A DNA stretch of 64,000 bases from a virus. Under the pieces are notes generated by a model. The model did not search any database. It saw nothing but the letters and a program-made list of their open reading frames with translations, and was not told where the DNA came from. A program made the translations under genes and the position numbers. Position 1 is the first letter of the stretch. Every line of letters starts with the position of its first letter. Positions 7,270 through 27,170 of this stretch are shown one piece after another. The stretch spans positions 3,036 through 67,035 of the IMG/VR virus record IMGVR_UViG_3300035670_000178, one strand, 5' to 3'.

Positions 7270-7768
7270 CGTAGATCTCCAGTGGTGCCAAAGAAACAAA
7301 CAGGCACCCGTTGTAGTTGAACCGGCGGGATTGCTTCCAGTGGGCGAACACCCACACTTCTGGAAGCGGCATCTCCGCCAGTTTCAGTTCAAATTCAGTT
7401 GCTTGATACCCGGCGGGGTCCATGATTTCCCCGACACTCGCCGGGCATTCATGGCTCAACACTACACGGACGCCTTTCCACCGGGACTTGACGAACGACC
7501 ACTCCGGGCCCCACAAACTAGATCCCACGATCAAGGCCCCGTTCAACCGTTCACCGTCCGTGATCCACTGATCGCACTTGACCACGTCCTCGTAACGATC
7601 TTTGTTCCCGCGAAGGAACTTATGCCCCTTCCGTGGTAACTGGGACCTCACGAAACTGAGATCCCCAAGGTCGCCTAATTGACAAGTAACATAGGGGCTT
7701 TCCTCCACTATCTTGAAGTACTCGCCCCAGGCGCCATTCACGACACCCACACATCGGATCGTCGTCAT
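7256..7768 (-). CDS. degenerate calcineurin-like metallophosphoesterase
   Basis: QLGDLG, LRGNKD, LSHECP and FAHWK match the MPE motif order, but the first DxH and the GNH His are substituted. Confidence 0.55.
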   Translation of the reverse strand: MTTIRCVGVVNGAWGEYFKIVEESPYVTCQLGDLGDLSFVRSQLPRKGHKFLRGNKDRYEDVVKCDQWITDGERLNGALIVGSSLWGPEWSFVKSRWKGVRVVLSHECPASVGEIMDPAGYQATEFELKLAEMPLPEVWVFAHWKQSRRFNYNGCLFVSLAPLEIYDVRT

Positions 7769-12182: not shown

Positions 12183-12420
12183 AACTGTACTACCAGTGTA
12201 GGGAAAATCTATACTATTGCGGCCTGGGAAAACTGTACTAGTATCGCAGGATCTTGGATGCCTTCGTCCCTCGTCCCTCGTCCCTCGTCCCTCGTCCCTC
12301 GTCCCTCGTCCCTCGTCCCTCGTCCCTCGTCCTTCGTCCCTCGTCCTTCGCCCTGGCTGGAACTGTACTACCAGTGTAGGGAAAATCTATATTATTGCGG
12401 CCTGGGAAAACTGTACTAGT
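12183..12420. repeat. 60-bp direct repeat pair (12183-12242, 12361-12420)
   Basis: AACTGTACTACCAGTGTAGGGAAAATCTATA(C/T)TATTGCGGCCTGGGAAAACTGTACTAGT, one mismatch. Confidence 0.95.
12264..12347. repeat. heptamer tandem array (TCGTCCC)x12
   Basis: 12 units counted, two of them TCGTCCT variants. Confidence 0.95.
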
Positions 12421-12489
12421 GTGGTAGTAGGGGAGGGTAGTAACTGTGTCACACCCATAGTACAGTGAACGCGCGGAATTTAATACCAT

Positions 12490-12608: not shown

Positions 12609-13186
12609 TGAGGTACGAATTCGTTCGCGCAACGAGTGAGGACGATCGGTGCGCTAAGTCTAATTGTCCATATGAAAAAGTAGAGGGTGCCGACTACTGT
12701 CCTCGGCACGGTGCAAACAAACAGATCGAAAAGAAGGCTCGACTGATGAAATATCAATTTCAAAAAGAGCGAGTTCGAGCGTCTGTCGCACTATTGGCCG
12801 CCGATCCAGAGCGCTACCGACTGGACGAAGAGTTGGCGATCATGCGGCTCACTCTTCAGGACACGATCAATGCAATCACTACCGAATCTGATCGCGAGTA
12901 TGCGCTCATGCAGGCGAGCGACACGATTCGGAATCTAGTAGCAACAATCGAAAAGACATCTCAAACATGTCTTCAACAAAGCGTCAATCTCGGACTCCTC
13001 CTCACAAAAGAGGATCTCATGGAGCACATCCAGAAGATAGTAGACGTACTAGCCGAAGAGATAGAAGATGAAGAAACGCTACTCCGAATTGCCAACCGAA
13101 TCGATCGGGTCCTTAGTGGCTCAAGGGATTCGGGATCGAGCAACAACCAGTCCTTGCAATTGGACGGCCCAGTATCGACGGATTGA
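12608..13186 (+). CDS. putative terminase small subunit
   Basis: Directly upstream of TerL; N-terminal C-x4-C...C-x2-H zinc motif and helical body. Confidence 0.6.
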   Translation: MRYEFVRATSEDDRCAKSNCPYEKVEGADYCPRHGANKQIEKKARLMKYQFQKERVRASVALLAADPERYRLDEELAIMRLTLQDTINAITTESDREYALMQASDTIRNLVATIEKTSQTCLQQSVNLGLLLTKEDLMEHIQKIVDVLAEEIEDEETLLRIANRIDRVLSGSRDSGSSNNQSLQLDGPVSTD

Positions 13187-14744
13187 AGATCCGCGGGACA
13201 AGACTAAGGTAATCAACTGGAAGTTCGATCTACATCCTTGGACCAAGGAAATGACGAATAGTCAAGATCGACACTGGGTCGGCCAAAAAGCCGCGCAGAT
13301 GGGCTTCAGCGAAGTGCTGATGAATCTCGCGTTCTACATGGTAACTCAGAAGAAAACGGCGACGTTGTACGGCCTCCCATCGGAACGGCCCGACGCCCGT
13401 GACTTCTCTGCGACTCGCTTCGATCCGGCGATCCAACATTCGCCATATCTCAAATCGATGCTTTCAGCGTCCGTATCTAACAACTTCTTGAAGATGTTCG
13501 GCGGCATTCCACTGTACATCCGCGGCTCGCGTGGTACAGCATCCTTCCACTCCATTCCCGTGGGCTGCGTTCTGCTGGACGAAGTGGACAAGATGTCGGA
13601 AAAGGCCGTTCGTGAAGCTATCGAACGTCTGTCCGGCCAGATCGAATTCTGGCTTCGGCAAGCATCCACTCCGTCACTCCCAGGGGTGGGCATCAGCAAG
13701 ACATTCCAAACGTCGACCCAGGACTTCTACACATTCCAGTGTCCGGGTTGCTCACGATGGACCGAATTAGTATTTCCCGACTGCCTGGTAATCCCTACGG
13801 ATGATCCAAAAAGTCCAGCAATCAACAATTCATACATCAAGTGCAAAGACTGCGGTATTCACTTACGCCACGAAGAAAAGCCATCCTTCCTCTCGTCCGG
13901 GAAATGGGAACCCCGCTTCCGTGATCGTAACATCCGCGGTTTCAAAATTTCTCAGCTTTATTCTTGCACTTTGCACCCTGCTCGTCTGGCCGAGTCGTAT
14001 CTTAACTCTCTGACGAATCCGGCCGACGAGCAGGTGCTCTATAATTCTAAGTTGGGCGAAGATCACATCGTAGCCGGCGCCGCCGTGACCGAGGAACATA
14101 TTCACAACTGCATTCGTCCATTCAATATTCGATCCGCGGCCACATCACCCGTCGTCACGATGGGCGTCGACGTGGGCTCTTATCTTCACTTCAAGATAAT
14201 CGAATATCGTTTCCAGCCTAATGCAGTCGATCCGAATACAGACTCAGAGGCTAAGTTACTGTATTACGACAAGATCAAGAACACCGAACCGGGGTTCGGC
14301 AACTTGATGCCGATTGTTCAAGAATACAACCCGCTCGCCATCTGTATCGACGCAGCTCCGGAACGTATTTCTTCGGAGAAATTCGCCAAGTCATTGTTCG
14401 GCCGCGCGTTCACCGTGAACTACAATGATCATACGGACGGCAAGACTATTTCAGACACGGATTTCTTCAAATTGACCGTCAATCGTACGTACTGGATCGA
14501 TCAATATCTTGGACGTTACATGAACGGCACTATTCATATCCCTGTACAAATCAACGAAGAGTTCAGGGTCCACATGAAAAGTCTGAAGAAGTTCTACGAA
14601 AAAGATCGCTTCGGTGAGACGATCGGGCGCTACGTGAAAACAGAGGGCCGAACAGACTATGCTCACTGCGGTGTGTATTGCGAAATCGCACTGCGTAAGG
14701 CATATCAGTCCGGTCACCTCAGCAACTTGAGAGTGAAAGTATGA
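13068..14744 (+). CDS. terL: terminase large subunit, lambda gpA-like
   Basis: KAAQMGFSE, LLDEVDKM Walker B, ASTP, CPGC/CKDC zinc motif, MGVDVG nuclease motif. Confidence 0.92.
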   Translation: MKKRYSELPTESIGSLVAQGIRDRATTSPCNWTAQYRRIEDPRDKTKVINWKFDLHPWTKEMTNSQDRHWVGQKAAQMGFSEVLMNLAFYMVTQKKTATLYGLPSERPDARDFSATRFDPAIQHSPYLKSMLSASVSNNFLKMFGGIPLYIRGSRGTASFHSIPVGCVLLDEVDKMSEKAVREAIERLSGQIEFWLRQASTPSLPGVGISKTFQTSTQDFYTFQCPGCSRWTELVFPDCLVIPTDDPKSPAINNSYIKCKDCGIHLRHEEKPSFLSSGKWEPRFRDRNIRGFKISQLYSCTLHPARLAESYLNSLTNPADEQVLYNSKLGEDHIVAGAAVTEEHIHNCIRPFNIRSAATSPVVTMGVDVGSYLHFKIIEYRFQPNAVDPNTDSEAKLLYYDKIKNTEPGFGNLMPIVQEYNPLAICIDAAPERISSEKFAKSLFGRAFTVNYNDHTDGKTISDTDFFKLTVNRTYWIDQYLGRYMNGTIHIPVQINEEFRVHMKSLKKFYEKDRFGETIGRYVKTEGRTDYAHCGVYCEIALRKAYQSGHLSNLRVKV

Positions 14745-16363
14745 ATCCACATCCTAGTATCGACTCTGAGTTGATCGAGCGTTGGCGTCTCATCAAGAAC
14801 GGCGGCGACGACTTCATCGAAGAGTTTCTCACTGCCCGTGAGAAAGAGAATCCACTCTCTTTCGGCACGCGCCGCGCAATGACTTACGATCCGGCAACCG
14901 CGTCATCGGCCATCGACGACGTGGTCAACTCACTTTCCGCTCGCCTCGACGTGACTCGAACCGGCGGGTCTATGGAGTATCAGAATATCGTAGCCGGCAT
15001 GGACGGCGGCGTGGATCGAAACGGATCTTCAATGAACGATTTCCTTATCAAGGAAACGATTCCCGAACTCTGTTTCATGCAGAAAGTTTGTTGGGTCATC
15101 CACAACGTGACCGACGACGACGATGTTCGGCAAGTACCGCACATCGTTCAGCATCCGGTCGAACAGATCTACAACTGGGCTTACCGTGACGGCCGTCTAA
15201 CTGCTTTCGCTGTCAAGTTCCCGGCTGCCAAGATTGACGAAGAAACCGGCTTCATGACCGAAGAAGTCGAAGTCATCCGTGCTTTCAAACTAGTTGATGG
15301 CGGCGTAGAGACTTGGTTGCAGCTTGAAGATGACACGGAAATCGATCCACTGACTCTTGAAGAAGGGGATTCACGAACGACGCTGGAAATTGACGAAATT
15401 CCAGTTGTACTGTTCATGCTTCCCGTGGCTCTTCTGTCGAAAATCGACAAGATTCAGATCGCTGCGCTCAATCTCGAATCGGCTGACATCGAGTGGCTTC
15501 GAATCGCGAACATTACCTTGTACACAGAACAGGGTCACGCCAGCTTTCCTAGCTCTGCTCTCATCAAATCCGATGACGCCACCGAAACTGAAGACAGTTT
15601 CGAGGTCGTTCTTGGATCAGGCAGTGGCCGTAGGTATGCGCTCGGCACTGAACGTCCTGGCTTCATCTCTCCTCCTGCCGATCCGATCATGGCAAGCATG
15701 AAAAAGCAGGAGCAACTCGAAGCAAAAACAAAGAACATCTTGAAGACTACTATGTCTTCAATGTCTCTGGCCTCCGCGGAAAGCATCCAGCTGCTCGGGC
15801 AAGGCATGGAATCCGGCCTATTCGTGATCGGAACTGTCTTGAAGCTGGGCGAAGATGCGTTTGCTCGCATCTTTCATAAGTATCTCAACCGTGATTACGT
15901 TCCGGTTAACATAAGCTATCCGAAAAAGTACGAACTTCGGACTGAAGACGATCGGATTAACAAAGCCAAGAACCTCAAAGAAATCGCCAAGACAGTCGGA
16001 TCGAATACGGCTAAGAAATATTTGGAAATCGAAACAGTCAAGACTCTTCTCGACGGCAAAGTGCCATACGAAGAGATGGCAAACATAGAGCAAGAAATCT
16101 TGAACTCCGATTTCTGTATTTACGAACCGGATACAGTCCGTGATCTAGTTGAAGGTGGTATCATCAGTCGAGCCACAGGCGCGACGGCAATCGGTGCTCC
16201 TGAAGGAGATTCGAAGACTGCCGAAGAGGAACATATTCGTCGAATCCTTGCTGTGAAGGTAAGCCAGACCAGCGGGATGGGTGAAGTAGATCCAGATCCT
16301 GCATTCTCCGAAAAAGTAAAGAAGGAGGCGTCCGATGAAGTACGTGCTGTTGGAGGAAGCTGA
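14741..16363 (+). CDS. portal protein
   Basis: 540 aa directly after TerL; mainly a positional call. Confidence 0.8.
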   Translation: MNPHPSIDSELIERWRLIKNGGDDFIEEFLTAREKENPLSFGTRRAMTYDPATASSAIDDVVNSLSARLDVTRTGGSMEYQNIVAGMDGGVDRNGSSMNDFLIKETIPELCFMQKVCWVIHNVTDDDDVRQVPHIVQHPVEQIYNWAYRDGRLTAFAVKFPAAKIDEETGFMTEEVEVIRAFKLVDGGVETWLQLEDDTEIDPLTLEEGDSRTTLEIDEIPVVLFMLPVALLSKIDKIQIAALNLESADIEWLRIANITLYTEQGHASFPSSALIKSDDATETEDSFEVVLGSGSGRRYALGTERPGFISPPADPIMASMKKQEQLEAKTKNILKTTMSSMSLASAESIQLLGQGMESGLFVIGTVLKLGEDAFARIFHKYLNRDYVPVNISYPKKYELRTEDDRINKAKNLKEIAKTVGSNTAKKYLEIETVKTLLDGKVPYEEMANIEQEILNSDFCIYEPDTVRDLVEGGIISRATGATAIGAPEGDSKTAEEEHIRRILAVKVSQTSGMGEVDPDPAFSEKVKKEASDEVRAVGGS

Positions 16364-16769
16364 ACTTTATTTCGCATCCCGCATCGGATCTGATCCGTGG
16401 GATCAAGCTGCTGACATCCTAAAAGAAAAAGCTCTCAATCACGCTGAACGCAGTTTCGAACGTCTTGCGTATAAAGGTCTGGAAGTAACTGCTGGCTACA
16501 TATTTCCCAGGGACGAGCAAACGGAAATACCTGTTCGCTTCAAAGAAGCAGTCTACGAGGAGGCCCTTAGCCTTCTTAACGGTAACAGTAACGAACGAGA
16601 GCTATCAGACCTGCATGTTAGTTCCTCATCTGTCGCAGGGTTCAGCACTAATGTAGATGTAACAATTGAGCGACCTTGGATCGGTTGGGGTCTCACGTCT
16701 TCCGTGGCGTGGACTTTGATCGCTCCCTATCTGCTTGATACGAAAACATTCCGCATAGTGCCAGCTTAA
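16335..16769 (+). CDS. head-tail adaptor (DnaT-like/gp6-like)
   Basis: YV.LEEAELYF, FPRD...IP..FKEA.YE.AL and LIAPYL motifs. Confidence 0.75.
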   Translation: MKYVLLEEAELYFASRIGSDPWDQAADILKEKALNHAERSFERLAYKGLEVTAGYIFPRDEQTEIPVRFKEAVYEEALSLLNGNSNERELSDLHVSSSSVAGFSTNVDVTIERPWIGWGLTSSVAWTLIAPYLLDTKTFRIVPA

Positions 16770-16782: not shown

Positions 16783-17511
16783 ATGCTTTATTTTGTATTC
16801 GGTTACGAAGGTGAAAACGACGACGTCGATCCGGTGGTTGAAGAGAAGAAATTCAGCCAGAAAGAAGTAAATGAGTTCAACAAGAAAGAACGCCTCCGCC
16901 GTGAAGCTGCTGAACAAGAACTTCAGCGGCAGAAAGATCTGATTGAGAAACTTCAAAATCAGCATCACATGACGGAAGCCGAAAAAGCTGAACTCGCTCA
17001 AAAGATCGATGAGTACGAAAAAGCCAAGATGACTGAAAAAGAACGGCTCGATCACGAACTCGCTAAGTTGCGTAAGCAAGCTGAAGAAGAGCGTAACACT
17101 CTTTCCAAGCAGCTCAACGAGATGAAGTCTAGCCGCGACAGTCTTATCATTACTCGCGCAATCAAAGAAGCTGCAATGGACGGCAAAGTAGTAGCCGCTG
17201 ATGGTACCGGCCATCAGGTGTGGGCTGTCCTTCGCCACTCCGCAGAAGTCAATGATGAAGGCGAGGTTGTTATTAAAGGGTTCGAGTATACCGAAGATGG
17301 GAAGTCCTTCACGGCTGACCTACCCGTTGGTGAAGCCATCGAAAAGATGAAAGCCAGCGACAAGTGGGTCAACTTCTGGAAGGATCCGAAAATCAAAGGC
17401 TTCCCCGATCCCTTCAATTCAGGTGGTGCGCCGGGCAACAAAGATCCAAAAGACTTCAAGACTTACCAGAAGCTCCGCCGCGAAGGCAAGCTCCCACATC
17501 AACGAGGGTAA
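16783..17511 (+). CDS. capsid scaffolding protein
   Basis: FSQKEVN motif, long coiled coil, Gly-rich C-terminus, directly before the capsid gene. Confidence 0.8.
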   Translation: MLYFVFGYEGENDDVDPVVEEKKFSQKEVNEFNKKERLRREAAEQELQRQKDLIEKLQNQHHMTEAEKAELAQKIDEYEKAKMTEKERLDHELAKLRKQAEEERNTLSKQLNEMKSSRDSLIITRAIKEAAMDGKVVAADGTGHQVWAVLRHSAEVNDEGEVVIKGFEYTEDGKSFTADLPVGEAIEKMKASDKWVNFWKDPKIKGFPDPFNSGGAPGNKDPKDFKTYQKLRREGKLPHQRG

Positions 17512-17517
17512 ACAGTT

Positions 17518-18861
17518 ATGTACTTTATTTTTGGTTACAACGACACGACTGCTTTCAACATCGATAAGATCGCCAACGAAGCTATGGCGATGTTCTTCGA
17601 GGAAGGCATCATTGCGAACTACGTAGCGACTGACTACGAGAACGAGTTCGCGTCTTGGGGCGATACTCTTCGCATCCCTTACCCGGCCGAGATGGATGCT
17701 GACCGTACGCCTGAAGGCACCGCGGCTGGCGTCACCGCTCTCGACAGCTCCTACCACGATCTCAAGCTGAATCAGCGTCTCACGCTCGGCTTCACGATCG
17801 GCACCCGTGAGCAGCAGCGTTCGTTCCAGAACCTTGCCGAAACTTATCTTCGTCCGACTATGCGCGGCTTGGCTAAGCTCCGTGACCGCGTCATTCAGGG
17901 TGAAGTCTACAAGTCTTACGGTAACACGGCTGGCGCTCTGGGCGCTGCCCTCACGTTCGACGACATCATCAATGCCGGCACGATCATGACCGAAAATCAC
18001 GTCCCGACAATGGGCCGTAACGCCATCGTCGGACCGCGCATGGGTGGCTACATCCGCAAAATGGATGAGTTCATCGCCAACGTGTCCAGCACGGACGACA
18101 CCGTCATCCGCACCGGTCTGATTGGCGACATCAACGGCTTCGCCGTCCACGAAACGTCCAGCTTCGTGACCGTCGCGCAGTCCACCCGCGTGACCGGTGC
18201 CGTCAACAGTGCGTCTATGGTTGCTGGTACGACTGCTGTCATTGTCGACAGTTTCAGCGCGGCGATCACTTCTGGCAGCTGGTGCACCATCGCTGGCGTG
18301 CCTTATCGCATCACGAGCACTGTTGGCGGCGCGACCCCGACCACGCTCAACATCGAAGGCGGCCTCCGTGATGATGTCGCCGATAATGCTGTGGTGTACG
18401 TCTACACTCCGTCCGTTGTTAACCACCCGACCGCCGGTAACTACGCTGCCGGTTACGAAGGTTGGATCGGCTGGGACGGCGCCGTTACGCCGAAGGTCGG
18501 CCAGGGCGTCACGTTCGGTACGGACGGTCTGCCCTACTCGATCGTCCGCATTGATGGCGGTAACATCCTGCTGAACCGCCCGCTTGACGTGGCTGTCAAC
18601 AACGATGCCTCCATCTTCCTGATGCCTGGTGGTAACTACGGTGTTGCTCTCTCGAAGAACTCCATCCAGATCGCCAATCGTCCTCTTGCCATTCCTGGCG
18701 AAGGCGAAGGTGTACGGGCTTCCGTCGTCGATGGCGGTGGCTGGTCGATCCGAGTCATGTCTGAGTACGACATGTACAAGGCTGAGACCACCTACATGTT
18801 CGACTTCATCATGGGCGCCAAGAGCCTTCAGCCGGCCCTCAACGTAATCTTCCTGGGATAA
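17518..18861 (+). CDS. major capsid protein (P22 coat-like, with inserted beta-rich domain)
   Basis: DYENEFASWGDTLRIP, GLIGDINGFAV, FDFIMGAK.L motifs; strongly biased codon usage. Confidence 0.85.
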   Translation: MYFIFGYNDTTAFNIDKIANEAMAMFFEEGIIANYVATDYENEFASWGDTLRIPYPAEMDADRTPEGTAAGVTALDSSYHDLKLNQRLTLGFTIGTREQQRSFQNLAETYLRPTMRGLAKLRDRVIQGEVYKSYGNTAGALGAALTFDDIINAGTIMTENHVPTMGRNAIVGPRMGGYIRKMDEFIANVSSTDDTVIRTGLIGDINGFAVHETSSFVTVAQSTRVTGAVNSASMVAGTTAVIVDSFSAAITSGSWCTIAGVPYRITSTVGGATPTTLNIEGGLRDDVADNAVVYVYTPSVVNHPTAGNYAAGYEGWIGWDGAVTPKVGQGVTFGTDGLPYSIVRIDGGNILLNRPLDVAVNNDASIFLMPGGNYGVALSKNSIQIANRPLAIPGEGEGVRASVVDGGGWSIRVMSEYDMYKAETTYMFDFIMGAKSLQPALNVIFLG

Positions 18862-18866
18862 TCGCT

Positions 18867-19310
18867 ATGTACTTTATTTTTGGTTACGCAGAAACTGCGC
18901 TTGTCGAATGTGTTGCTCTTAGTTCCGCCGCTCCCGCAGGTATGAAAAGTCTGGCTCTGCCGACTGCCGCTAGTGTGGCACCTGCTGTTGCTGGCGCCAC
19001 TTTCTGGAACGCCTACGACTCAGTGAACATGAACTACTTCACCTATGGCACCAAGAAGCAGTTGAAGGTGGTAAACACCAACGCAACTGGTTCTGTAACC
19101 CTCACTGTCAAGACTAAAGACGACACTGTCGCCGGGCTTGATCGTGTAGTCGAAGATTTGGTTATCACTCTTGGGCCCGAAGAGGTCTGGGAATCTGGTA
19201 TCCTGCCTTCAGTATTCAACGACGCTAACAAGGTCAAGATTGAGCTTGCCGACGTGGCAGCTGGTGACAGCCTTGCCGATTGCTTCATCGCAGTCGTGAA
19301 TGTCACCTAA
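18867..19310 (+). CDS. putative capsid decoration / structural protein
   Basis: Follows the capsid gene; beta-rich; shares the MYFIFGY N-terminus. Confidence 0.55.
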   Translation: MYFIFGYAETALVECVALSSAAPAGMKSLALPTAASVAPAVAGATFWNAYDSVNMNYFTYGTKKQLKVVNTNATGSVTLTVKTKDDTVAGLDRVVEDLVITLGPEEVWESGILPSVFNDANKVKIELADVAAGDSLADCFIAVVNVT

Positions 19311-19669
19311 TGAACCTTGACCCTGTATTCAGAAATCTAGGGACGTGGATCTATCTTGTTAGAGAAGAGGTTGGCGAGCTCGACTATGATACAGGGTTGC
19401 GTCCCAAAATTTATAGCTACGAAAGAGTACGTGCGCTAATTGGTCAGAAAAATTTCGGTTTCCAGTTGCATCTCAATTTGGATGAATCGATGGTAGCTCT
19501 GACCAAACAAGCAGACCTCGTGGTTCAAGATCAGGAAGCCTACCGACTTGAAGAGTTGAGTAGTGCATTTGGAGTTTACATTTACAAGAAAAACAAGGTG
19601 ACTGGTGATGAGCTTAGATCCATTGTGGATGGCATCGCTTCAAAAAGCAGCCACGAAACATTTTCTTAA
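19310..19669 (+). CDS. putative head closure protein
   Basis: Positional; start MNLDPVF overlaps the upstream stop; YDTG motif. Confidence 0.5.
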   Translation: MNLDPVFRNLGTWIYLVREEVGELDYDTGLRPKIYSYERVRALIGQKNFGFQLHLNLDESMVALTKQADLVVQDQEAYRLEELSSAFGVYIYKKNKVTGDELRSIVDGIASKSSHETFS

Positions 19670-20006
19670 CTACGATCTAGGCGTCCCGTGGGACTTTGAC
19701 AATACAGTTGAAGGAGATAAAATCTCCGTCAAACTGATTGACTCTAGTCTAACTAAGCTGAACTCGGAAGAGTCTATGGCTGAGTTTACAGTGCGAATAA
19801 CTTGCACTGTATCAACGGACGGTCTCTATGACTTAGCCGCCTTGTCAGGTAAAGTAGCTCTTGTGCTACAAGACGAACTACAAGTTGATGGATCCTGTGC
19901 AGCGTCACCGATCCAAGAAGACGTCAAGATAAGTTATTTTGACGAGATTCACGGCTACAAACAATCCTTGATGATGAAGAAATTCATCGCAAGACTGCGA
20001 GGGTAA
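19608..20006 (+). CDS. putative tail terminator
   Basis: Positional, directly before the tail tube gene. Confidence 0.5.
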   Translation: MSLDPLWMASLQKAATKHFLNYDLGVPWDFDNTVEGDKISVKLIDSSLTKLNSEESMAEFTVRITCTVSTDGLYDLAALSGKVALVLQDELQVDGSCAASPIQEDVKISYFDEIHGYKQSLMMKKFIARLRG

Positions 20007-20007
20007 T

Positions 20008-20508
20008 ATGTACTTTATTTTCGGTTACCTCGATGCGGATGCCCCCATCGAACTTCGTTATTGCACCGTTCTCATCGAAGACGGTGCATCGGCCAGCGTT
20101 GAGCTTACGTTTGACGACGGTGATTTCTCTTACACGATTGCTCGTGAGTGGAACTACCGCCCCAACCGTGGTCGCCTTGGCGCAGCTAATGGTGCTTCGG
20201 TCACGCAAGGTGACGATCAGCCGATGTCTCTCAGCTTTGAAGGCCGTTACTCGTTCTTCACTTCTGTCGCTGACACGAAGCCCAACCAGATCCTATTCAA
20301 TATCGGCGGCGGTTTCACTTCTACGGACACGCAGAATTGCGCGACCTACGCTGTGAACATCACGCTGACTTATGAACCTCCCTGCGCGGACAGCGAAACT
20401 CTGCTGTTCCGTGACTTCCGAATTGATGAAGGACAGTACGGCATCCGGGACGGCCAGGCGTCGTTCTCCGGTCGCTGCAACGCAACCGAACCTGAGGTGG
20501 TATCTTAA
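20008..20508 (+). CDS. major tail tube protein
   Basis: Beta-rich 166 aa directly before the frameshifted chaperone pair; SFSGRC C-terminus. Confidence 0.75.
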   Translation: MYFIFGYLDADAPIELRYCTVLIEDGASASVELTFDDGDFSYTIAREWNYRPNRGRLGAANGASVTQGDDQPMSLSFEGRYSFFTSVADTKPNQILFNIGGGFTSTDTQNCATYAVNITLTYEPPCADSETLLFRDFRIDEGQYGIRDGQASFSGRCNATEPEVVS

Positions 20509-20509: not shown

Positions 20510-20971
20510 ATGCTGATCAACGGTGAAAAAATCAATGCCCCTTTCCGTAGAGAGATCGTAATCCCACGCGTGGAAGGAGACATTGTATTTAATGCCACGG
20601 CTGTTTCTGTAGAGCAGAAGTTTCTTGAACTCTGTCCTGTGATCGAGCCGAAAACGCAGAAAGATGCAAAAGGCAATATCGTAAAGTATCTTTACGACGA
20701 TCCCGACTACGTCAAGCGCTCGCAGGAGCGTTTGATGCGCAAGCTGGACCTTCAAGTCATCATGTCTCTTGAAAATGTCAAGTGGGAGACTGTTGTTCTT
20801 GAAGATCCGGAAACTTGGAAGAACTGGAAGACGGAGGCGGTTGAGTCCGGCTTGTCTGATTGGGAAGTAAACAGTCTTCAGAATCAGGTAGTCGAAACGC
20901 TCCAGCCTTCTCGTGAGCTAATCGACGAAATGAAAAAACGTTTTTTAGCTTCACAGGACCTAAAGGCGTAG
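20510..20971 (+). CDS. tail assembly chaperone (gpG-like)
   Basis: Start MLINGEK; ends just after the slippery heptamer T TTT TTA at 20941-20947. Confidence 0.8.
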   Translation: MLINGEKINAPFRREIVIPRVEGDIVFNATAVSVEQKFLELCPVIEPKTQKDAKGNIVKYLYDDPDYVKRSQERLMRKLDLQVIMSLENVKWETVVLEDPETWKNWKTEAVESGLSDWEVNSLQNQVVETLQPSRELIDEMKKRFLASQDLKA

Positions 20972-21162
20972 CGGCTCCTCCCCTCCCTAAGTACCGAACA
21001 GTTTTCTATCAAGTCTATAGGGCTTGTGAAAGATTCGGGATAAAGCCCTGGTTGTGGGATGACTTAGACGTCACGACACAATCAGGGCTTTTAGCTTATG
21101 AGGAGATAAGGGCAGATGAGGAAAGCTACCATCCGAACAAAGGTGACGGTCCGCAAGTTTGA
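20941..21162 (+). CDS. gpT-like extension reached by -1 frameshift
   Basis: The -1 frame is open from the heptamer to TGA at 21160-21162 (FSFTGPKG...ACERFGIKPWLWDDL...GPQV). Confidence 0.75.
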   Translation, partial: FFSFTGPKGVAAPPLPKYRTVFYQVYRACERFGIKPWLWDDLDVTTQSGLLAYEEIRADEESYHPNKGDGPQV

Positions 21163-21625
21163 TCTTCAATACACCGAACAGACGTTCAAAGATGAAGTGC
21201 AAAAATTATTCAGAAATGCGGCCATTGAGTTTGTAGAGACGGGCATAAAAAATTTCCCAGCTCTTACAGGCCAAGCCAAAGCAGCAGTAATTAATGTTGC
21301 CGGTACACTAGGCTTACGAGTAGACTTCGATCCGATGTCTGAGCCTTACTCTGAATACATGCACTTAAGGCCAGCACTGATTGCTACAGGTAACGATATC
21401 CTACGTGGTTACAAAATGGGATCTTCAAAGATCCGTGATTACAAGTACACTGTGGCTTGGGAAATTAAGTTAAGCATAACTGCTGCTTCAAATGAGTTCG
21501 ACTACTTTACTTACTGGGATAATTCCCGTTGGCATTCGATGGAAGCTGCTATAGCTTCCGCCGAAGCATATGTCAGCCGCCACATGAGCGGTTTGTTGAA
21601 AGCGAGGCTTAAGAAAAATGGCTGA
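21116..21625 (+). CDS. putative neck/tail completion protein (HK97 gp10-like)
   Basis: PALTGQAKA resembles the P.DTG.L motif. Confidence 0.5.
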   Translation: MRKATIRTKVTVRKFDLQYTEQTFKDEVQKLFRNAAIEFVETGIKNFPALTGQAKAAVINVAGTLGLRVDFDPMSEPYSEYMHLRPALIATGNDILRGYKMGSSKIRDYKYTVAWEIKLSITAASNEFDYFTYWDNSRWHSMEAAIASAEAYVSRHMSGLLKARLKKNG

Positions 21626-24600
21626 TGGATTTGATTATTCTATTTCTATTAAAGGCGGCCAGGAAGCTCTCACTTTCTTCAATACGTTGAATAACGTATT
21701 AGACGACACTTCGGCGACCGCCAGAACAAACGCTGATCGTTTAAATGCGATCGCTAGACGTGCGGAAGAACTGGCTGCACGCTACAATGACGGTGCAGAG
21801 GCAGCGGCTTTATTTTTTAAAGAAGCCGCAGATGGATCTAGCACTTTCATCGAAGCCAATCTTAAAATGACCAAGGCTCAAAAAGCCTTAACGAGGCGTA
21901 CGGCTCAAGGTCTCGACGTTGCTGAAGCGATACGGCGTACCCTCGATCAGCTTACAAAAGAATACGAGCAGCAAAACACCATACTAGTTGAAGCTGCAAA
22001 AGCTGGTGAAGCCGTAAATGCTTCTCAGAAAAAAGTAGCAAAGTCTACAGGTGAAGTCTCTGAGGCTCTCGAAAAAGTACCTCTCAACATTTATGCTCAG
22101 ATGGCTGCTGAAGCTAAGGAAGCTCAAGAAAACATTGAAGCATACCATAAAGCAAATGCTGAATTTATGGATGACTTCGAGCGTAGACAAGCCGCTGCTC
22201 AGCTTCATACAGACGACGCTGGTGCTATTCGTCAAGTCATAGAGATCAACGAAGAACACGAGCGTACGCGCCAAATAATGCTTAAGTCTTACTTGGAGCA
22301 AAAAGATCAGCTAGAAGCTATACGGAAGCAAGAAGAAAAAGATGAAAAAGAACGGCTAAATGCAATTAAACGTGAAGAAAAAGCTCGTCAGAAAATGTAC
22401 GAGAATATTTTCACGTCTAGAGAATCTTTGCAACAAGAAAAAGATATCGATGAGTACGGTAGCATTGATCTTGCTAAGCAAGCACGTATGTATCAAGATC
22501 TTTTTGGATCAGCGGCTTCAGTAAAACAAGAAAGAAAAGCAGAGACAAAGCTGATCGAAGAAGAAATGGCAGCTTTGAAAGCCAAAGAAGACTTGGCTGA
22601 CCGTATCACTGCGGATTCTTGGGCTAGATACGTAGAAGAAGAAAAAGCTACAGAGGCTTTTGTGGAAGCCAGTATCAAGTCCTATAATAAGATGCATGCT
22701 GCTTTCATGAAGAATGTCGCCGAAGAAGAAGCAGCAAACGAGAAGAAGTTTCAAGAAGAACTTGCTTTGGCTAAGAAGTTTTTGAAATTTCAAGATGATG
22801 TCGCTAATGGTGCAAAATCTAGGCAAAGTCTTGGAAGTACTTCAGCGGCTGATCTTGTTGATGTTTCCCGCGGAGAAACGATCGTTAACCGTGAAGACGA
22901 CGGTTCGGAACGTTACCGTCGAATGTCTGAAGCTATAGCAGACTACCGAAATCAGCTTACTCTAGCTCAAGCTATGAAGACTCGATTCATCGGGACTGCA
23001 AAAGACGCTAATGAAGTAATTAAAGATTTCACTCTTTCCTGGCAGACCATGGGTCGAATCATGGTTGCTCAGGCATTCAATGAAGTCTTTTTTGCGATGC
23101 AGAACGGCATTCGTGGTGCCGTCAGCGAAGCCACTGAACTTTACAAAGTCGTAGCTGAAATTCAGACCATCGTCGATCCGGCTATGAGGACTCTTGGCGA
23201 CTACTACGCTTCGTTGGAAGCAATTATTCAAGCATCCAACCAGCTTAACTTTGCCCCAGATGACGTAGGTCTTGCTTTTTATGAAACTCTGTCCAATCAG
23301 ATTGGCGATAGCGTTGGAGAAATCCAAAATTTCATAAAAGAGTCGGCCAACCTTGCGAAGGTGACAAGATCAACTCTTGCAGATTCGTCTGACGCCATTT
23401 CGTCGGTGATGAACGCTTTCAATCTCAGTTTGTCTGACACTAACAAGATTGCATCTGAACTGTTTTCAGTTGTAGACTTGGGTCGTGTTAAGCTCGAAGA
23501 GATTGCAAATCACATCGGTAACGTTGCTGTACCTGCTGCTCAGCTAGGTCTCACGATGGAAGATCTGTCAGCTTCGCTGGCCACGATCTCTATTGCGGGT
23601 ATCCCTGCTAGCGAAACTATGACTTTGCAACGTAACTTGATGTATAAGTTGATCGACCCCACTGAAAAAATGACAGAGCTGATAAAAAGTTGGGGTGTTG
23701 ACTCTGCGGATGCTGCTGTTCAAACTTTTGGTTTCTTAGGTATCCTTCAAAAGTTAGATGAAGCCGCCGCCAAAGGTAGTGAAGAGTTGGCCGGCATAGC
23801 TGGTACGACGCGAAGTTACCGTGGTATCCTGGGCCAAATTGGCACTAACCTTGAAGTTTACGAAAAGGCATTAGAGGCTACTAGGAAGGCGCAAGAAAAC
23901 TACAACGAAGTTGTCGCAAAGTATGTTGAAAATCCAGGGGAACAGTTCTCCAAGCTCCAACAGCAAATCTCAAACGAAATGCTGCAAATGGGTCTTCGGA
24001 TCGTAGAACTTGTTAACTATTGGGATAACTTGTTTGGAAAGACTGAAGACGGCAATAGAGCTTTGGCTGTGGCTATAGGCTATATGACAAAGCTCACTAT
24101 GACGGTTACGGCTGGTGTTGTTGCTTTTCTTGTACTAGAAACAGCCATCGGCGCAGTCACACGTGCTCTTCTCGCTTTGAGCGTAGCGGAAAAGACAGTT
24201 ACGACAATCTCAGGTATTGGTCTAGCTATTTCAGCTTTGATCGGCACAGTGACGTTGGCAACAGCTGCCTATGCTACTTTCTCGGATAGCGCCACGAAAA
24301 GTCTTTCCAGAATTAAAACTGCTGCCGCCGAAGCCAACAAAGATGTGGCAAAAAGTTTTAAAGAAGGAATCATCGGGGCTACAGATCAGTTGGTCGGTGG
24401 TCAAATGACTACGATCAATGACAATTTGAAAGATATGGCTGCTTACCTTCAAAAGGTAAATGAAGCTGCGAAAAGCCAAGAAGCGAAAAAAGCGTTTGAA
24501 GATCTAGAGGCTTCTTTGAATCTATTCATCGATGCTTTGGGCGGTGATGAAGCCTCTCAGAAAATCACCCATCTATTCAAGTCTGCAAGTGAACTTCAGG

Positions 24601-27170
24601 ACATCTACGGAGAGTCCGTTTGGTACACTAATGACGCTTTGAAAGAAGGAGCTGATCTTCACGAAAAGAATGCAAATGAAATGGAGCGTGAGCTTGATCT
24701 TCTTAGACAGCAAAGAGACATGGTTCTTGATCTAGCTGCTGCTAATAGATTGGCTTTGGCTCAGAGCGTAACTGAAAGAAATATTTCGGCCATCGCAGAT
24801 CCAAAAGCCAGAGGCGTAGCACAGTTTAGGGCTGCTCAAGATGCCGCCTATCAAGCAGCCAACGTCGCCGACCCAGAAGAATCGCGTAAGCTCTTTGAAA
24901 TTGCTAGGAAATTCCTAGCAGATTCAGAACGCAGTGCCTACGAATCTGGAGCTTTCGGAAATCTTCAAGCCCACATTTCTTTCTTCAATCGACAAGAATC
25001 TGAGCTTTATGCTTTGCAAGAGCGTAGGTTGCAAGCAGAATACAATGCAATCGACGCTCAAAGTGTCAGTCTTCAAAAACAGCAACAAGAGCATAAAGAA
25101 AGTCTTGACTGGTACAACAAAGAATCAAAGCTACGCGAAGAAAGATTGCAACAGTACGATCTTGAGCTTAAGTATCTCCAAGAGTATGTCAGACTGCGCG
25201 ATCAAACTCTTAACAATAAAGAGCTTGGTGTCGACGAGCAAGTCCAAAGACTTAAAACTCTCAGAGATCAAGCTGAGATGGGCTTGAATGACATCAACGC
25301 TGGCGATCAAACCCGTGCAGCGTTTGCCCGTGAGTTCAATAAGACAGACCAGGAACTTCTAGGTTCAGCCGTATCTGCCGCCCAGACTCAAACTGCTATG
25401 GGTGCTAAAGATATTAAAGAAAAACAAAATGCACTTGATAGGGTTACCGATGATTTTGGGACGTCATTAACAAACGCTGCCGCAAAAACAGAAGAAGCCA
25501 TAAGAATCATTGCTGAGTCGGCCAAAGAACTTTATCGCTACGAAGGTCCGGCAAACGAGTACAGAAAACCGTCTGAAGTTTCTGAAATAGATACAATATT
25601 GTCTGAGTTTATTGCACTCAGAGATAGAGCTCAAACTGACAAATCTTTCACACCTCAAGATTACGAAGCATCGCTAGGTGCTCTGCAAACAAGGCTGGAA
25701 GATTTTATTAACCGAACTGGAACCGGATCGGACGATGCTAATTCTGCTTTGGCACTTGCTAAAGCAAATCTATCTCAGTTAGGGATTTTGAAAAACAGCA
25801 TTGACAATCTCACGCAAGAAATTGAAAAGCAGACAAAAGCTCTAATTGAGTATAGTAATCGTTTCGTCGGCCCGGACGTTGACTATAGTCAAGGTGTCGG
25901 TTCTTCTGAAGCAGAAGAAATGTATCTCGCTGAAGAAAGTTCAACTGAAAAAAAGTTTTGGGAAAGAACAGAAGAACAGTGGAATAAATTCTTCGATCTG
26001 GCGCTAAATACTATAAGCACAAAAGCTGCCAAATATTGGGGAAGGGTTCCTAAAGCCGGCGGTCTTGCAAACTACCAAGCTCATGCTATGAGTAGTTTCA
26101 CTCAAGAAAACTTTGACGATCCGGCCAATATGCAGAAAAAGATAAATAATCTAGTAGCTTCTGCTGAAATGGCCAATCCGTTAGCGTATAATAACAATAC
26201 TCAAATGGGCGCTAACTTGAAATCCTTTTTGCAAGAAGATATGACAAACAAACAGCAAACTGGAAATCAACCTTTTGAAAACTTGCCCAATCTAAATGAA
26301 ACTTATCACAGATTTCAAGATCTTGGTCGCATAGCTGTAGAAGCGATGGCTGATGGCGCTACGATAGCTATGGAGCAGGCACCTGCACCGGCTCCAGAGC
26401 AGGAAGCCCTGCTGTCGCAAGAACAAGCGCAAGCTAAGCAGAAGCAAACTATTCTAGATCAGGAAATGGCAAATGCTCAGGCTCAAGCTCAGCGTACCAA
26501 TCTCGAACCCTACATGTCTTACACAGATCCGCAAGGTAAGATAAACGGACAACCTGCTGTTGACGCTCTGGGGCCTGATCTTAAAGGTCCTCTAATTAAC
26601 GGCCAACCTATGACAGATTTCTTGCCTGAAAGACACAATCAAGTATCTTCTGGCGGCTTTATAGATGGCGTCCCTGCTGGATACATGACAAACGAAATCC
26701 AGAATGGAGTTAGTTGGGGAGCACAACAGTCGATCCCGCAAGCTATGGAACAAGGATCTATGTCTGTTCGTCAGGCTATTGTTGACGGTATGGCTCAAGC
26801 CTTCCGCGAAAATCAGATGAATCAAGGTATGATGAACTCTGAAGATCGTTATTACGATTATAGCCCTCGCAGATTTGCAAAAGGCGGACCTGTTGGCACA
26901 GACACGATCCCCGCTTGGCTTAGCCCTGGTGAGTATGTAGTGAATGCAAAAGCCTCTAAAGAAAACTTTAGTTTGCTTCAGGCAATCAACTACGGTGGCG
27001 GAATGAAACGCTACTCACAAGGCGGCCCCGTGACGAGCAGCCAATCTTTCAGCAACACTTTCCACATTACATCTGCTAATCCGAATATGCAAGCATCGAA
27101 TATCGCGACTGCACTGCGTAGGCAGATCGCACAAGGTAAGGCAACACTCTCAAAGAGAAGGCCCTATTGA
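21618..27170 (+). CDS. tape measure protein
   Basis: 1850 aa, helical, TP901-type core, central hydrophobic segments, C-terminal FAKGG..GTDTIPAWLSPGEYVVNA. Confidence 0.93.
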   Translation: MADGFDYSISIKGGQEALTFFNTLNNVLDDTSATARTNADRLNAIARRAEELAARYNDGAEAAALFFKEAADGSSTFIEANLKMTKAQKALTRRTAQGLDVAEAIRRTLDQLTKEYEQQNTILVEAAKAGEAVNASQKKVAKSTGEVSEALEKVPLNIYAQMAAEAKEAQENIEAYHKANAEFMDDFERRQAAAQLHTDDAGAIRQVIEINEEHERTRQIMLKSYLEQKDQLEAIRKQEEKDEKERLNAIKREEKARQKMYENIFTSRESLQQEKDIDEYGSIDLAKQARMYQDLFGSAASVKQERKAETKLIEEEMAALKAKEDLADRITADSWARYVEEEKATEAFVEASIKSYNKMHAAFMKNVAEEEAANEKKFQEELALAKKFLKFQDDVANGAKSRQSLGSTSAADLVDVSRGETIVNREDDGSERYRRMSEAIADYRNQLTLAQAMKTRFIGTAKDANEVIKDFTLSWQTMGRIMVAQAFNEVFFAMQNGIRGAVSEATELYKVVAEIQTIVDPAMRTLGDYYASLEAIIQASNQLNFAPDDVGLAFYETLSNQIGDSVGEIQNFIKESANLAKVTRSTLADSSDAISSVMNAFNLSLSDTNKIASELFSVVDLGRVKLEEIANHIGNVAVPAAQLGLTMEDLSASLATISIAGIPASETMTLQRNLMYKLIDPTEKMTELIKSWGVDSADAAVQTFGFLGILQKLDEAAAKGSEELAGIAGTTRSYRGILGQIGTNLEVYEKALEATRKAQENYNEVVAKYVENPGEQFSKLQQQISNEMLQMGLRIVELVNYWDNLFGKTEDGNRALAVAIGYMTKLTMTVTAGVVAFLVLETAIGAVTRALLALSVAEKTVTTISGIGLAISALIGTVTLATAAYATFSDSATKSLSRIKTAAAEANKDVAKSFKEGIIGATDQLVGGQMTTINDNLKDMAAYLQKVNEAAKSQEAKKAFEDLEASLNLFIDALGGDEASQKITHLFKSASELQDIYGESVWYTNDALKEGADLHEKNANEMERELDLLRQQRDMVLDLAAANRLALAQSVTERNISAIADPKARGVAQFRAAQDAAYQAANVADPEESRKLFEIARKFLADSERSAYESGAFGNLQAHISFFNRQESELYALQERRLQAEYNAIDAQSVSLQKQQQEHKESLDWYNKESKLREERLQQYDLELKYLQEYVRLRDQTLNNKELGVDEQVQRLKTLRDQAEMGLNDINAGDQTRAAFAREFNKTDQELLGSAVSAAQTQTAMGAKDIKEKQNALDRVTDDFGTSLTNAAAKTEEAIRIIAESAKELYRYEGPANEYRKPSEVSEIDTILSEFIALRDRAQTDKSFTPQDYEASLGALQTRLEDFINRTGTGSDDANSALALAKANLSQLGILKNSIDNLTQEIEKQTKALIEYSNRFVGPDVDYSQGVGSSEAEEMYLAEESSTEKKFWERTEEQWNKFFDLALNTISTKAAKYWGRVPKAGGLANYQAHAMSSFTQENFDDPANMQKKINNLVASAEMANPLAYNNNTQMGANLKSFLQEDMTNKQQTGNQPFENLPNLNETYHRFQDLGRIAVEAMADGATIAMEQAPAPAPEQEALLSQEQAQAKQKQTILDQEMANAQAQAQRTNLEPYMSYTDPQGKINGQPAVDALGPDLKGPLINGQPMTDFLPERHNQVSSGGFIDGVPAGYMTNEIQNGVSWGAQQSIPQAMEQGSMSVRQAIVDGMAQAFRENQMNQGMMNSEDRYYDYSPRRFAKGGPVGTDTIPAWLSPGEYVVNAKASKENFSLLQAINYGGGMKRYSQGGPVTSSQSFSNTFHITSANPNMQASNIATALRRQIAQGKATLSKRRPY

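What the first reader, a model, noticed from the sequence alone, without database searches (positions are those of the whole stretch)
16783..20028. Shared N-terminal MYFIFGY tag on the scaffold, capsid, decoration and tail tube proteins
Seen: four otherwise dissimilar proteins begin alike: scaffold MLYFVFGY (16783), capsid MYFIFGY (17518), putative decoration MYFIFGY (18867), tail tube MYFIFGY (20008). Similarity stops after GY and acidic residues follow. Three DNA copies read ATGTACTTTATTTT(T/C)GGTTAC. The scaffold copy keeps YFxFGY using a different Tyr codon and an I-to-V change, yet also keeps CTTTATTTT in a shifted frame. Low-copy genes in between lack the tag, and the head module has no prohead protease. 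Known analogy: Staphylococcus phage 80alpha scaffold and capsid share an N-terminal motif cleaved by the host protease Prp. Inference: an undescribed leader system marking high-copy assembly proteins for cleavage, chaperoning or membrane targeting, and/or an mRNA box for coordinated translation. Extension to the tail tube goes beyond the Prp precedent.
Basis: partly seen in the sequence, partly recalled or inferred. Interest (0 to 1): 0.88.

Follow-up and report, generated by a model that had tools for sequence, protein, structure and literature searches.

The report
Shared leader peptide on phage virion proteins
Four unrelated virion-building proteins of an uncultivated phage begin with the same seven-residue peptide, and related phages each carry their own version on the same kinds of protein, which points to an undescribed tagging or processing step in virus assembly.

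Summary
Scaffold (16783), P22-type coat (17518), a 147-aa beta-sandwich protein (18867) and the tail tube (20008) start M(L)YF[IV]FGY; no other ORF in the window does. The tag is translated and under peptide-level selection. It is on 15 of 15 close coat orthologs, 18 of 18 tube orthologs and 7 of 7 orthologs of the 147-aa protein. A diverged relative has [LFY][FY]I[FYP]AY on the same four genes with quite different DNA. In 16 related phages, leaders on non-homologous proteins are 68% identical within a phage and 21% between phages. Leaderless orthologs begin exactly at the junction after the final Tyr/Phe. It works like the Prp-cleaved leader of staphylococcal phage 80alpha, but the motif differs. 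Five host genomes of distant relatives, four of them Planctomycetota, have no Prp and a short L27. Cleavage and the recognising factor are unproven. An mRNA role is at most secondary. Verdict: a new variant of a known kind, in a large capsid family (1204 clusters at E<=1e-30).

The parts
16783..16806 (+). leader MLYFVFGY of the scaffolding protein
   Evidence: the ortholog leaders are MHYFIYGY (L007) and MLLFIFAY (L012)
16783..17511 (+). scaffolding protein, 242 aa, acidic and coiled-coil with a basic C-terminus
   Evidence: phrog_206 E 2.2e-9; lies directly upstream of the coat gene
17518..17538 (+). leader MYFIFGY of the coat protein
   Evidence: 15 of 15 close orthologs carry M(0-3 residues)[YF][FY][IVH]F[GAS]Y
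17518..18861 (+). major capsid protein, P22 type, 447 aa
   Evidence: PF11651 E 1.6e-12; phrog_283 E 2.4e-44; 65 homologs; 1204 cluster representatives at E<=1e-30
18867..18887 (+). leader MYFIFGY of the 147-aa protein
   Evidence: 7 of 7 full-length orthologs are tagged
18867..19310 (+). 147-aa beta-sandwich protein; possibly a decoration or cement protein, by position only
   Evidence: AF2 pLDDT 83 with residues 1-6 below 50; no PDB match at E<=0.001; no Pfam or PHROG hit
20008..20028 (+). leader MYFIFGY of the tail tube protein
   Evidence: 18 of 18 orthologs with a complete N-terminus are tagged
20008..20508 (+). tail tube protein, 166 aa
   Evidence: AF2 pLDDT 82.5 with residues 1-11 below 50; best Foldseek PDB matches are tail tube proteins; followed by the chaperone-like gene 20510-20971 and the tape measure 21618-27170
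13068..16769 (+). untagged context: large terminase, portal and an Ad1-like adaptor
   Evidence: PF05876/phrog_675, phrog_145, phrog_477
19310..20006 (+). two untagged small genes (119 and 133 aa) between the 147-aa gene and the tube gene
   Evidence: untagged in L007 and L012 too
20510..27170 (+). untagged chaperone-like gene, a 169-aa gene and the tape measure (1850 aa)
   Evidence: the tape measure of relative G005:C4 is tagged

Best explanation
M(x)YF[IV]FGY is a modular N-terminal leader peptide. It is not part of the folds it precedes. This phage lineage has grafted it onto several self-assembling virion proteins: scaffold, coat, a 147-aa head-associated protein and the tail tube. One common trans-acting factor reads it sequence-specifically. 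The most likely reading is a propeptide removed by a cytoplasmic endopeptidase that cuts after the final Tyr (small residue at P2, aromatic at P1, D/E/N nearby downstream). That would keep polymerising proteins tagged or held back until assembly, as the Prp-cleaved leader does on staphylococcal phage 80alpha CP/SP and the phi13 tail protein. The peptidase is probably host-encoded, but it is not Prp in the lineages that could be checked.

Shown: the peptide is translated, conserved, modular, phage-specific and shared within a phage, and its junction coincides with the start of leaderless orthologs. Inferred: recognition by one factor. Not shown: cleavage, and the identity of the factor.
For: (1) Peptide-level conservation. 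The tag is on 15 of 15 close coat orthologs at 45-72% identity, on 18 of 18 tube orthologs and on 7 of 7 orthologs of the 147-aa protein.

(2) The same four genes are tagged in relatives L007 (MHYFIYGY, MNYFIFGY, MNYFIFGY, MYFIFGY) and L012 (MLLFIFAY, MFYIYAY, MQFFIPAY, MNLYIYAY). G becomes A in all four L012 copies, and their DNA differs.

(3) In 16 phages, the last 7 leader residues of non-homologous proteins are 0.68 identical within a phage (n=33 pairs) and 0.21 between phages (n=492). 0 of 5000 label permutations reach this.

(4) Synonymous divergence with the peptide kept. The G006 coat and tube leaders MNPLYLA[TP]AMLICF differ at 4 synonymous sites and 1 non-synonymous site in 36 nt. 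The four G005:C4 copies of F[KR]PVYD use different codons; 4 hits were found against about 0.19 expected by my own estimate, and all are at N-termini of ORFs on the phage contig.

(5) Modularity. Coat orthologs P0034, P0058 and P0059 start MANSLDA, exactly where others have ...[YF]|AN. Tube orthologs start MARIELR where L024 has ...MLICF|ARIELR. Of the 99 best family representatives that could be anchored, 88 have an extension (median 14 aa; 53 end in F/Y/W; P1' is A in 38 and D in 22) and 11 start at the junction.

(6) The AlphaFold models leave the tag unstructured: pLDDT below 50 for residues 1-11 of the tube and 1-6 of the 147-aa protein.

(7) No prohead protease. 40 window ORFs scanned with Pfam and 17 with PHROGs give only a lysis-type M15 peptidase. 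No peptidase family turned up among the genes the window shares with the related genome G005:C4.

(8) Precedent: 80alpha CP and SP, and the phi13 major tail protein (PMC5744158, passages).
Against: No data show that the leader is removed. In 80alpha, cleavage itself is dispensable while the SP leader is needed (PMC5744158), so a leader can act without being cut.

No host protein with the tag was found. The YFIFGY pattern in 401 Planctomycetota genomes is at chance level: 14 hits against 11 in the reversed-pattern control. M-x(1-3)-LYL-x6-C[YF] in five genomes hit only the two phage copies plus one out-of-frame chance match. G005 and G006 carry their phage's leader only on phage genes.

Prp is absent and L27 is short in 5 of 5 host genomes of distant relatives, so the only known enzyme of this kind is excluded there and no candidate replaces it.

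The host of the window's phage is unknown. One of the five genomes (G005, labelled Cloacimonadota) is linked to its phage only by binning: the phage is a separate 64.5-kb contig. The four Planctomycetota genomes carry their prophages on contigs of 444 kb to 4.2 Mb.

The phages in the co-variation statistic are related, so its permutation count overstates independence.
Confidence: 0.5

Rival explanations
1. The leader is never cleaved. It acts as an assembly or chaperone handle. It could be a short aromatic beta-strand that binds a common chaperone or phage protein. Alternatively it could pair in register with identical tags on other subunits, co-localising the virion proteins. It would stay on the mature proteins or be buried in them.
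For: 80alpha needs the SP leader but not its cleavage, and its authors propose a common chaperone (PMC5744158). Near-identity of leaders within a phage is what in-register self-pairing would demand. No protease candidate was found in phage or host. The tag is strongly aromatic and hydrophobic, and unstructured in monomer models.
Against: A generic chaperone would not need sequence identity across 7-14 residues. The sharply conserved small-residue plus Tyr/Phe end, and leaderless orthologs starting exactly at that junction, look like a processing site. No binding partner was tested; I ran no complex prediction.
Confidence: 0.3
2. It is an ordinary Prp substrate. The unknown host would be a Prp-bearing bacterium whose L27 (or FlhB) precursor carries a YF[IV]FGY-like extension.
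For: The logic matches 80alpha and phi13. Aromatic at P1, often followed by Ala in the wider family (P1' is A in 38 of 88), resembles the F|A site of Prp (PMC5744158; PMC9405229, passages). The host of the window's phage could not be identified.
Against: The motif lacks the L-x-L-Q-x-F core printed for L27 precursors in PMC9405229. The virus record has no L27 or Prp gene. Relatives of this phage family sit as prophages in Planctomycetota genomes, which have short L27 and no Prp. [quoted passage not shown]
Confidence: 0.07
3. The conserved element is chiefly an mRNA or DNA box, for example a translation-initiation enhancer of late high-expression genes. The peptide would be a by-product.
For: The three copies in the window are identical at 20 of 21 nt or better. 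The tags use TTT for 6 of 8 Phe codons and ATT for 3 of 3 Ile codons, although the rest of the four genes uses TTC 36:2 and ATC 40:12 (Fisher p=7.7e-5 and 0.017). GC content of codons 2-8 is 0.29 against 0.42 in 21 untagged genes.
Against: L012 keeps the peptide pattern with dissimilar DNA in its four copies. Copies in G005:C4 and G006 differ at synonymous sites. An extra codon after ATG in L007 shifts the box relative to the start. Predicted folding energy at the start does not differ: -9.4 vs -9.2 kcal/mol. GC-rich Planctomycetota relatives have leaders with no A/T bias in their residues.
Confidence: 0.07
4. There is no function. The shared 5' ends are remnants of gene conversion or cassette duplication (ribosome-binding site plus first codons), or the true starts lie downstream.
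For: The window copies are nearly identical in DNA. One gene caller started the 147-aa gene at an internal Met (P0085, 122 aa).
Against: The tag is conserved in every ortholog examined down to 45% identity. Residues between the tag and the internal Met of the 147-aa protein are conserved: E9, T10 and L12 are invariant. The next in-frame Met in the coat is 22 residues on, and none occurs in the first 60 residues of the scaffold. Each tag ATG is preceded by a Shine-Dalgarno-like stretch. Leader copies have diverged synonymously under peptide constraint.
Confidence: 0.04

Closest known systems
Prp-cleaved N-terminal leader of Staphylococcus phage 80alpha capsid and scaffolding proteins, also noted on the phi13 major tail protein (host cysteine protease Prp, which matures ribosomal protein L27)
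   Same: A short N-terminal peptide shared by non-homologous head and tail assembly proteins of a siphophage that has a separate scaffold and no prohead protease. It ends in an aromatic residue, and the junction gives the N-terminus that leaderless homologs have. Its purpose in assembly is unclear there too (PMC5744158, passages read).
   Different: The motif is unrelated (YF[IV]FGY rather than ...LxLQxF|A). No host protein with the motif was found. Five host genomes of related phages lack Prp and long L27. The leader sequence is specific to each phage lineage rather than copied from a conserved host substrate. Cleavage is unproven here.
Propeptides and capsid-targeting sequences cut by phage-encoded prohead proteases (T4 gp21, HK97 delta domain, phiKZ/SPN3US). 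This comparison is recalled from general knowledge; only the abstract of the SPN3US paper PMC10052503 was seen in a search listing.
   Same: Several head proteins of one phage carry N-terminal segments with a common cleavage signature.
   Different: Those systems need a phage protease packaged inside the prohead and act on head proteins only. Here no such gene was found in 40 ORFs, and tail proteins (tube; tape measure in a relative) are tagged as well.
Encapsulin cargo-loading peptides (recalled from general knowledge; no paper read for this)
   Same: A short conserved peptide appended to unrelated proteins in a system built on an HK97-fold shell.
   Different: Cargo peptides sit on cargo and bind the shell protein. 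Here the shell protein itself, its scaffold and the tail proteins carry the tag.

Membership tests
Prp / long-L27 leader system | Short N-terminal leader shared by non-homologous virion assembly proteins of a phage without a prohead protease | tested here: met
   Four tagged proteins. No prohead protease family in 40 ORFs scanned with Pfam and 17 with PHROGs.
Prp / long-L27 leader system | Leader matches the Prp recognition motif of L27 precursors (e.g. MLKLNLQFF'ASK as printed in PMC9405229) | tested here: not met
   By eye, YF[IV]FGY followed by E/N/A/L shares only the aromatic residue at the junction. No profile comparison is possible for 7 residues.
Prp / long-L27 leader system | Host encodes Prp (PF04327) and an L27 with an N-terminal extension | tested here: inconclusive
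   The window's host is unknown, and the virus record has neither gene. Five host genomes of distant relatives: Prp in 0 of 5, L27 starts MAHKKG in 5 of 5. Controls matched in B. subtilis, Thermotoga and Lactococcus.
Prp / long-L27 leader system | Leader is removed from the mature proteins | not testable with these tools
   Needs N-terminal proteomics. Indirect only: leaderless orthologs start at the junction.
P22-like coat plus scaffold head module | Coat protein of family PF11651 with a separate scaffolding protein gene directly upstream | tested here: met
   PF11651 E 1.6e-12, phrog_283 E 2.4e-44, scaffold phrog_206 E 2.2e-9.
Prohead-protease propeptide systems | Phage-encoded prohead protease gene in the head module | tested here: not met
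   Portal, adaptor-like, scaffold and coat genes are contiguous with no room for another gene. The only peptidase family found is Peptidase_M15_4 at 39151-39663, in the lysis region. A weak partial PHROG 'protease' hit for 33127-33489 (E 1.9e-4, 90 of 1125 profile positions) has no Pfam support.
Siphophage tail tube proteins | Tail-tube fold, and a gene upstream of the chaperone and tape measure genes | tested here: met
   AF2 model pLDDT 82.5. The best Foldseek matches are tube proteins at E 1e-3 to 2e-2, prob 1.0, TM 0.45-0.57, so the scores are modest. Gene order.

The most novel reading that the evidence does not exclude
A widespread, Prp-independent leader-peptide system of tailed phages. 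In a large family of P22-coat siphophages (many are prophages of Planctomycetota; this window belongs to an uncultivated lytic-looking branch), each phage marks its self-assembling virion proteins with its own short N-terminal peptide ending in Tyr/Phe: always coat and scaffold, and variably tube, tape measure and small head proteins. An unidentified protease or receptor, of host or phage origin, reads that peptide to control when and where these proteins polymerise. Repeated grafting of the leader onto new proteins shows that it is a portable signal.
Probability: 0.45. Interest if true: 0.85.

Novelty: new variant of a known kind. Interest (0 to 1): 0.74.

Why it matters
Apart from proteases encoded by the phage itself, Prp is the only described case I know of where head and tail proteins of a phage share a cleaved leader. 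That statement is my recollection plus the papers read here. Prp is confined to Firmicutes-like lineages.

Here the same logic appears with a different peptide, in a capsid family with 1204 cluster representatives at E<=1e-30. It occurs in hosts that lack Prp. That implies either a second, unknown processing enzyme or a cleavage-independent tagging mechanism for virion assembly.

The leaders are short, portable and phage-specific. They therefore give a direct handle for finding the factor by peptide pull-down, or by genetics in Planctomycetota that carry such prophages. They also help annotation: they flag true start codons and identify structural genes that have no family assignment, such as the 147-aa protein and the 104-aa ORF in G005:C4. 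I found no paper containing the motif and none describing leaders on these prophage proteins. Papers outside the held library were not searched.

Tried and rejected
Rejected readings:
- A lipoprotein or signal-peptide reading of the Planctomycetota leaders (...L[AIV][SA]C[YF]). They are too short, most lack a basic n-region, the Cys is absent from the window's clade, and these are cytoplasmic capsid proteins (listing).
- A prepilin-type G|F/Y site. The hydrophobic stretch lies before the Gly, not after it, and Gly is replaced by Ala, Ser or Cys in relatives.
- A Bacteroidota-type -7 promoter box inside the tag (TAnnTTTG, recalled). It was dropped because the peptide, not the DNA, is conserved in L012.

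Searches that led nowhere:
- Single-protein coat scan of viral contigs.
- Close-clade coat profile in genome contigs and in metagenome contigs.
- DNA tag pattern in viral contigs: 7 loci, 1 real.
In the rest, the hits in ORFs of 90 aa or more were internal matches in unrelated, mostly membrane-like ORFs, and none matched the six query proteins by tblastn.
- Cultured phages: best coat match 28% identity over 35% of the protein.
- tRNA scan: none found.
- Host identification for the window's phage failed.

Not done:
The longer contigs behind P0012 and P0071 could therefore not be read.
- Supplements of papers were not consulted.
- I ran no complex prediction, no read mapping and no atlas search.
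- PMC4418427 (Wall 2015) is not held, so its content is cited only through PMC5744158 and PMC9405229.

Rows dropped before the co-variation count: L011 and L013 (same phage as L007), L020 (same as L019), L028 (same as L021), and L031 and L040 (only the coat leader was identified).

51 of the 150 representatives could not be anchored by my regex and are not counted. By eye, many of them also carry extensions.

Full report
**What is there.** The window is most of a 67-kb IMG/VR virus record (linear, estimated 81% complete). Its late operon on the + strand runs as follows:
- small-terminase-like gene (12608)
- large terminase (13068; PF05876, phrog_675)
- portal (14741; phrog_145)
- Ad1-like adaptor (16335; phrog_477)
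- scaffold (16783; phrog_206)
- P22-type coat (17518; PF11651, phrog_283)
- a 147-aa gene (18867)
- two small genes (19310, 19605)
- a 166-aa gene (20008)
- a chaperone-like gene (20510)
- a 169-aa gene (21116)
- an 1850-aa tape measure (21618)

Four of these proteins begin M(L)YF[IV]FGY. The 21-nt DNA word occurs three times, against none in 100 shuffles. The degenerate peptide pattern occurs four times, against a mean of 0.02 in shuffles. A relaxed regex over every possible start on both strands finds no fifth case.

**Naming of the tagged proteins.** The 166-aa protein is a tail tube protein. An AlphaFold model built on 21 sequences has pLDDT 82.5. Its best PDB matches are tube proteins of siphophages, tailocins and contractile systems, with modest scores (E from 1.3e-3, probability 1.0, TM 0.45-0.57). 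The 147-aa protein models as a beta-sandwich (pLDDT 83) with no PDB match at E<=0.001, so 'decoration' rests on position only. In both models the tag is the one N-terminal segment with pLDDT below 50.

**The tag is translated, and it is the peptide that is conserved.**
- *Relatives found by scanning.* A pattern scan of viral contigs found relative L007 (coat 56-57% identical). There the same four genes start MHYFIYGY, MNYFIFGY, MNYFIFGY and MYFIFGY. These copies show synonymous differences and an extra codon after the ATG.
- *A more distant relative.* A profile scan found L012 (coat 52% identical) with MLLFIFAY, MFYIYAY, MQFFIPAY and MNLYIYAY on the same four genes. Gly has become Ala in all four copies, and the four DNA copies are dissimilar.
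- *Orthologs in the protein database.* 15 of 15 close coat orthologs (45-72% identity), 18 of 18 tube orthologs with a complete N-terminus and 7 of 7 full-length orthologs of the 147-aa protein carry the tag.
- *Start codons.* Shine-Dalgarno-like stretches precede every tag ATG. In the 147-aa protein, the residues between the tag and the next Met are conserved.

The refutation condition 'true starts lie downstream' is therefore not met.

**The phenomenon is wider than this phage.**
- *More distant coat homologs.* Homologs at 30-39% identity carry variable N-terminal extensions that end in [AVCT][YF], just before a conserved ANDNDAxxPExWAxES segment. Three of them start MANSLDA with no extension.
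- *Genome scan.* A scan of species-representative genomes with these homologs returned 34 loci. Many are prophages on large contigs of Planctomycetota (Thermoguttaceae, Pirellulales, Planctomycetaceae).
- *Leaders are shared within each phage.* Examples: MLTDLYKSCALISCY|DN (scaffold) with MNHVYLSVAVASCY|AN (coat)...SLYLSRPWFGCY|EG with MKSLYLSRPFVACY|DN.
- *Some phages also tag the tube.* L024 has MNPLYLATAMLICF|AN on the coat and ...MNPLYLAPAMLICF|ARIELRD on the tube. Most tube orthologs start MARIELRD, exactly at that junction.
- *A related whole genome.* G005:C4 (64.5 kb) shares 24 of the window's ORFs by blastp at E<=1e-3. It has [VI]F[KR]PVY|D on the scaffold, the coat, the tape measure and a 104-aa ORF next to the portal gene. 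Its tube is untagged.
- *Statistic.* For the last seven leader residues of non-homologous proteins, mean identity is 0.68 within a phage (33 pairs) and 0.21 between phages (492 pairs). 0 of 5000 label permutations reach this. The phages are related, so this count is not a true probability.
- *Synonymous divergence.* Leader copies within one genome differ at synonymous sites while keeping the peptide. The sharing is therefore maintained by selection rather than by recent copying.
- *Family size.* A profile search of 1.84 billion cluster representatives gives 1204 coat relatives at E<=1e-30. Of the best 150, 99 could be anchored on the conserved segment. 88 of these have an extension (median 14 residues; 53 end in F/Y/W; the next residue is Ala in 38 and Asp in 22), and 11 start at the junction.

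**Mechanism.** The evidence shows four properties:
- The leader is dispensable for the folds, because leaderless orthologs exist and the models leave it unstructured.
- It is portable: it has been grafted onto the tube, the tape measure and small head proteins in different lineages.
- It has a sharply defined C-terminal end: a small residue, then Tyr/Phe.
- It is kept nearly identical on unrelated proteins of one phage.

Together these indicate sequence-specific recognition by one common factor. I consider cleavage after the aromatic residue the most likely outcome (confidence about 0.5). This follows the host-protease Prp precedent in staphylococcal phage 80alpha. There CP and SP lose 13 and 14 residues at an F|A site, and the same motif sits on the phi13 major tail protein (PMC5744158, passages read).

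The main rival (0.3) is an uncleaved handle for a chaperone or for tag-to-tag pairing. In 80alpha the SP leader is essential but its cleavage is not (same paper).

**It is not the Prp system itself, where this could be checked.** The motif lacks the LxLQxF core of L27 precursors (PMC9405229, passages). The virus record has no L27 or Prp gene. In five host genomes of distant relatives, L27 starts MAHKKG and PF04327 is absent, while the control genomes matched. Four of these are Planctomycetota genomes with prophages on contigs of 444 kb to 4.2 Mb. The fifth is a Cloacimonadota-labelled bin whose link to the phage contig rests on binning only.

No host gene carrying a leader was found:
- The leaders of G005 and G006 occur only on phage genes.
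- A consensus Planctomycetota leader pattern hit nothing else in five genomes.
- YFIFGY in 401 Planctomycetota genomes is at the level of the reversed-pattern control.

These negatives are weak, because the patterns are strict and catch only some of the known phage copies.

No phage protease candidate emerged. 40 window ORFs scanned with Pfam and 17 with PHROGs gave only a lysis-type M15 peptidase at 39151. The host of the window's phage remains unknown.

**mRNA-level role.** The window's copies are nearly identical in DNA. They use rare A/T-ending codons: TTT in 6 of 8 Phe codons against 2 of 38 elsewhere in the four genes, and ATT in 3 of 3 Ile codons against 12 of 52 (Fisher p=7.7e-5 and 0.017). 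Predicted folding around the start does not differ from 21 untagged genes (-9.4 vs -9.2 kcal/mol), and relatives keep the peptide with different DNA. I read this as a secondary constraint on the 5' coding region, or a trace of common origin, not the main function (0.07).

**Novelty.** The motif string occurs in none of the papers held. Searches for leaders on Planctomycetota phage or prophage structural proteins, and for other host-protease cases, returned only the 80alpha/Prp literature. Papers outside the held library and all supplements were not seen. I file this as a new variant of a known kind. It uses the logic of the Prp leader with a different peptide, in hosts without Prp, in a large and mostly uncultivated capsid family. 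The recognising factor is still to be found.

Noticed in passing
window 12217-12468: Between the leftward early genes and the late operon, three reading frames on the + strand and one on the - strand translate into repeats such as PRPSSLV or RDEGRGT. This is a tandem DNA repeat just upstream of the small-terminase-like gene; it might be a packaging or regulatory region.
   Followed up: no
window 39151-39663: A 170-aa protein with Peptidase_M15_4 (E 1.9e-10), probably the endolysin. It is the only peptidase family found in 40 ORFs.
   Followed up: partly
window 41022-42664 (- strand): Two adjacent D12-class N6-adenine DNA methyltransferase genes (PF02086, E about 1e-23 each). Both match the same single gene of the related genome G005:C4, so this is a tandem duplication.
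   Followed up: no
P0213: A 5871-aa protein with 18 separate stretches matching positions 245-316 of the coat profile. This looks like a giant protein built from repeats of the domain inserted in this coat family.
   Followed up: no
G005:C4 (L179-L182), 7451-7765 (- strand): A 104-aa ORF next to the portal gene carries the phage's leader (MKKVFKPVY|DG...) and has no counterpart in the window. It is an unannotated, probably head-associated, tagged protein.
   Followed up: partly
L015, L016, L035, L022, L025, L017: Phage contigs of this family sit in MAG bins labelled Methanomassiliicoccales, Saccharibacteria, Anaerolinea, Dehalococcoidales and Cloacimonadota. Several are short or stand-alone contigs, so these host labels may be binning artefacts, unlike the Planctomycetota prophages on contigs of hundreds of kb to Mb.
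   Followed up: no
window 18942 (internal Met of the 147-aa gene); P0085: The protein database holds a 122-aa version of this gene starting at an internal Met. An automatic gene call has missed the tagged start, so leaders of this kind can correct start-codon annotation.
   Followed up: partly
window 16335-16769 and its orthologs in L017-L032: The Ad1-like adaptor gene lies between portal and scaffold in all leader-bearing relatives examined, but after the coat gene in leaderless relative L033. This is a gene-order difference that tracks presence of the leader in the few cases seen.
   Followed up: no
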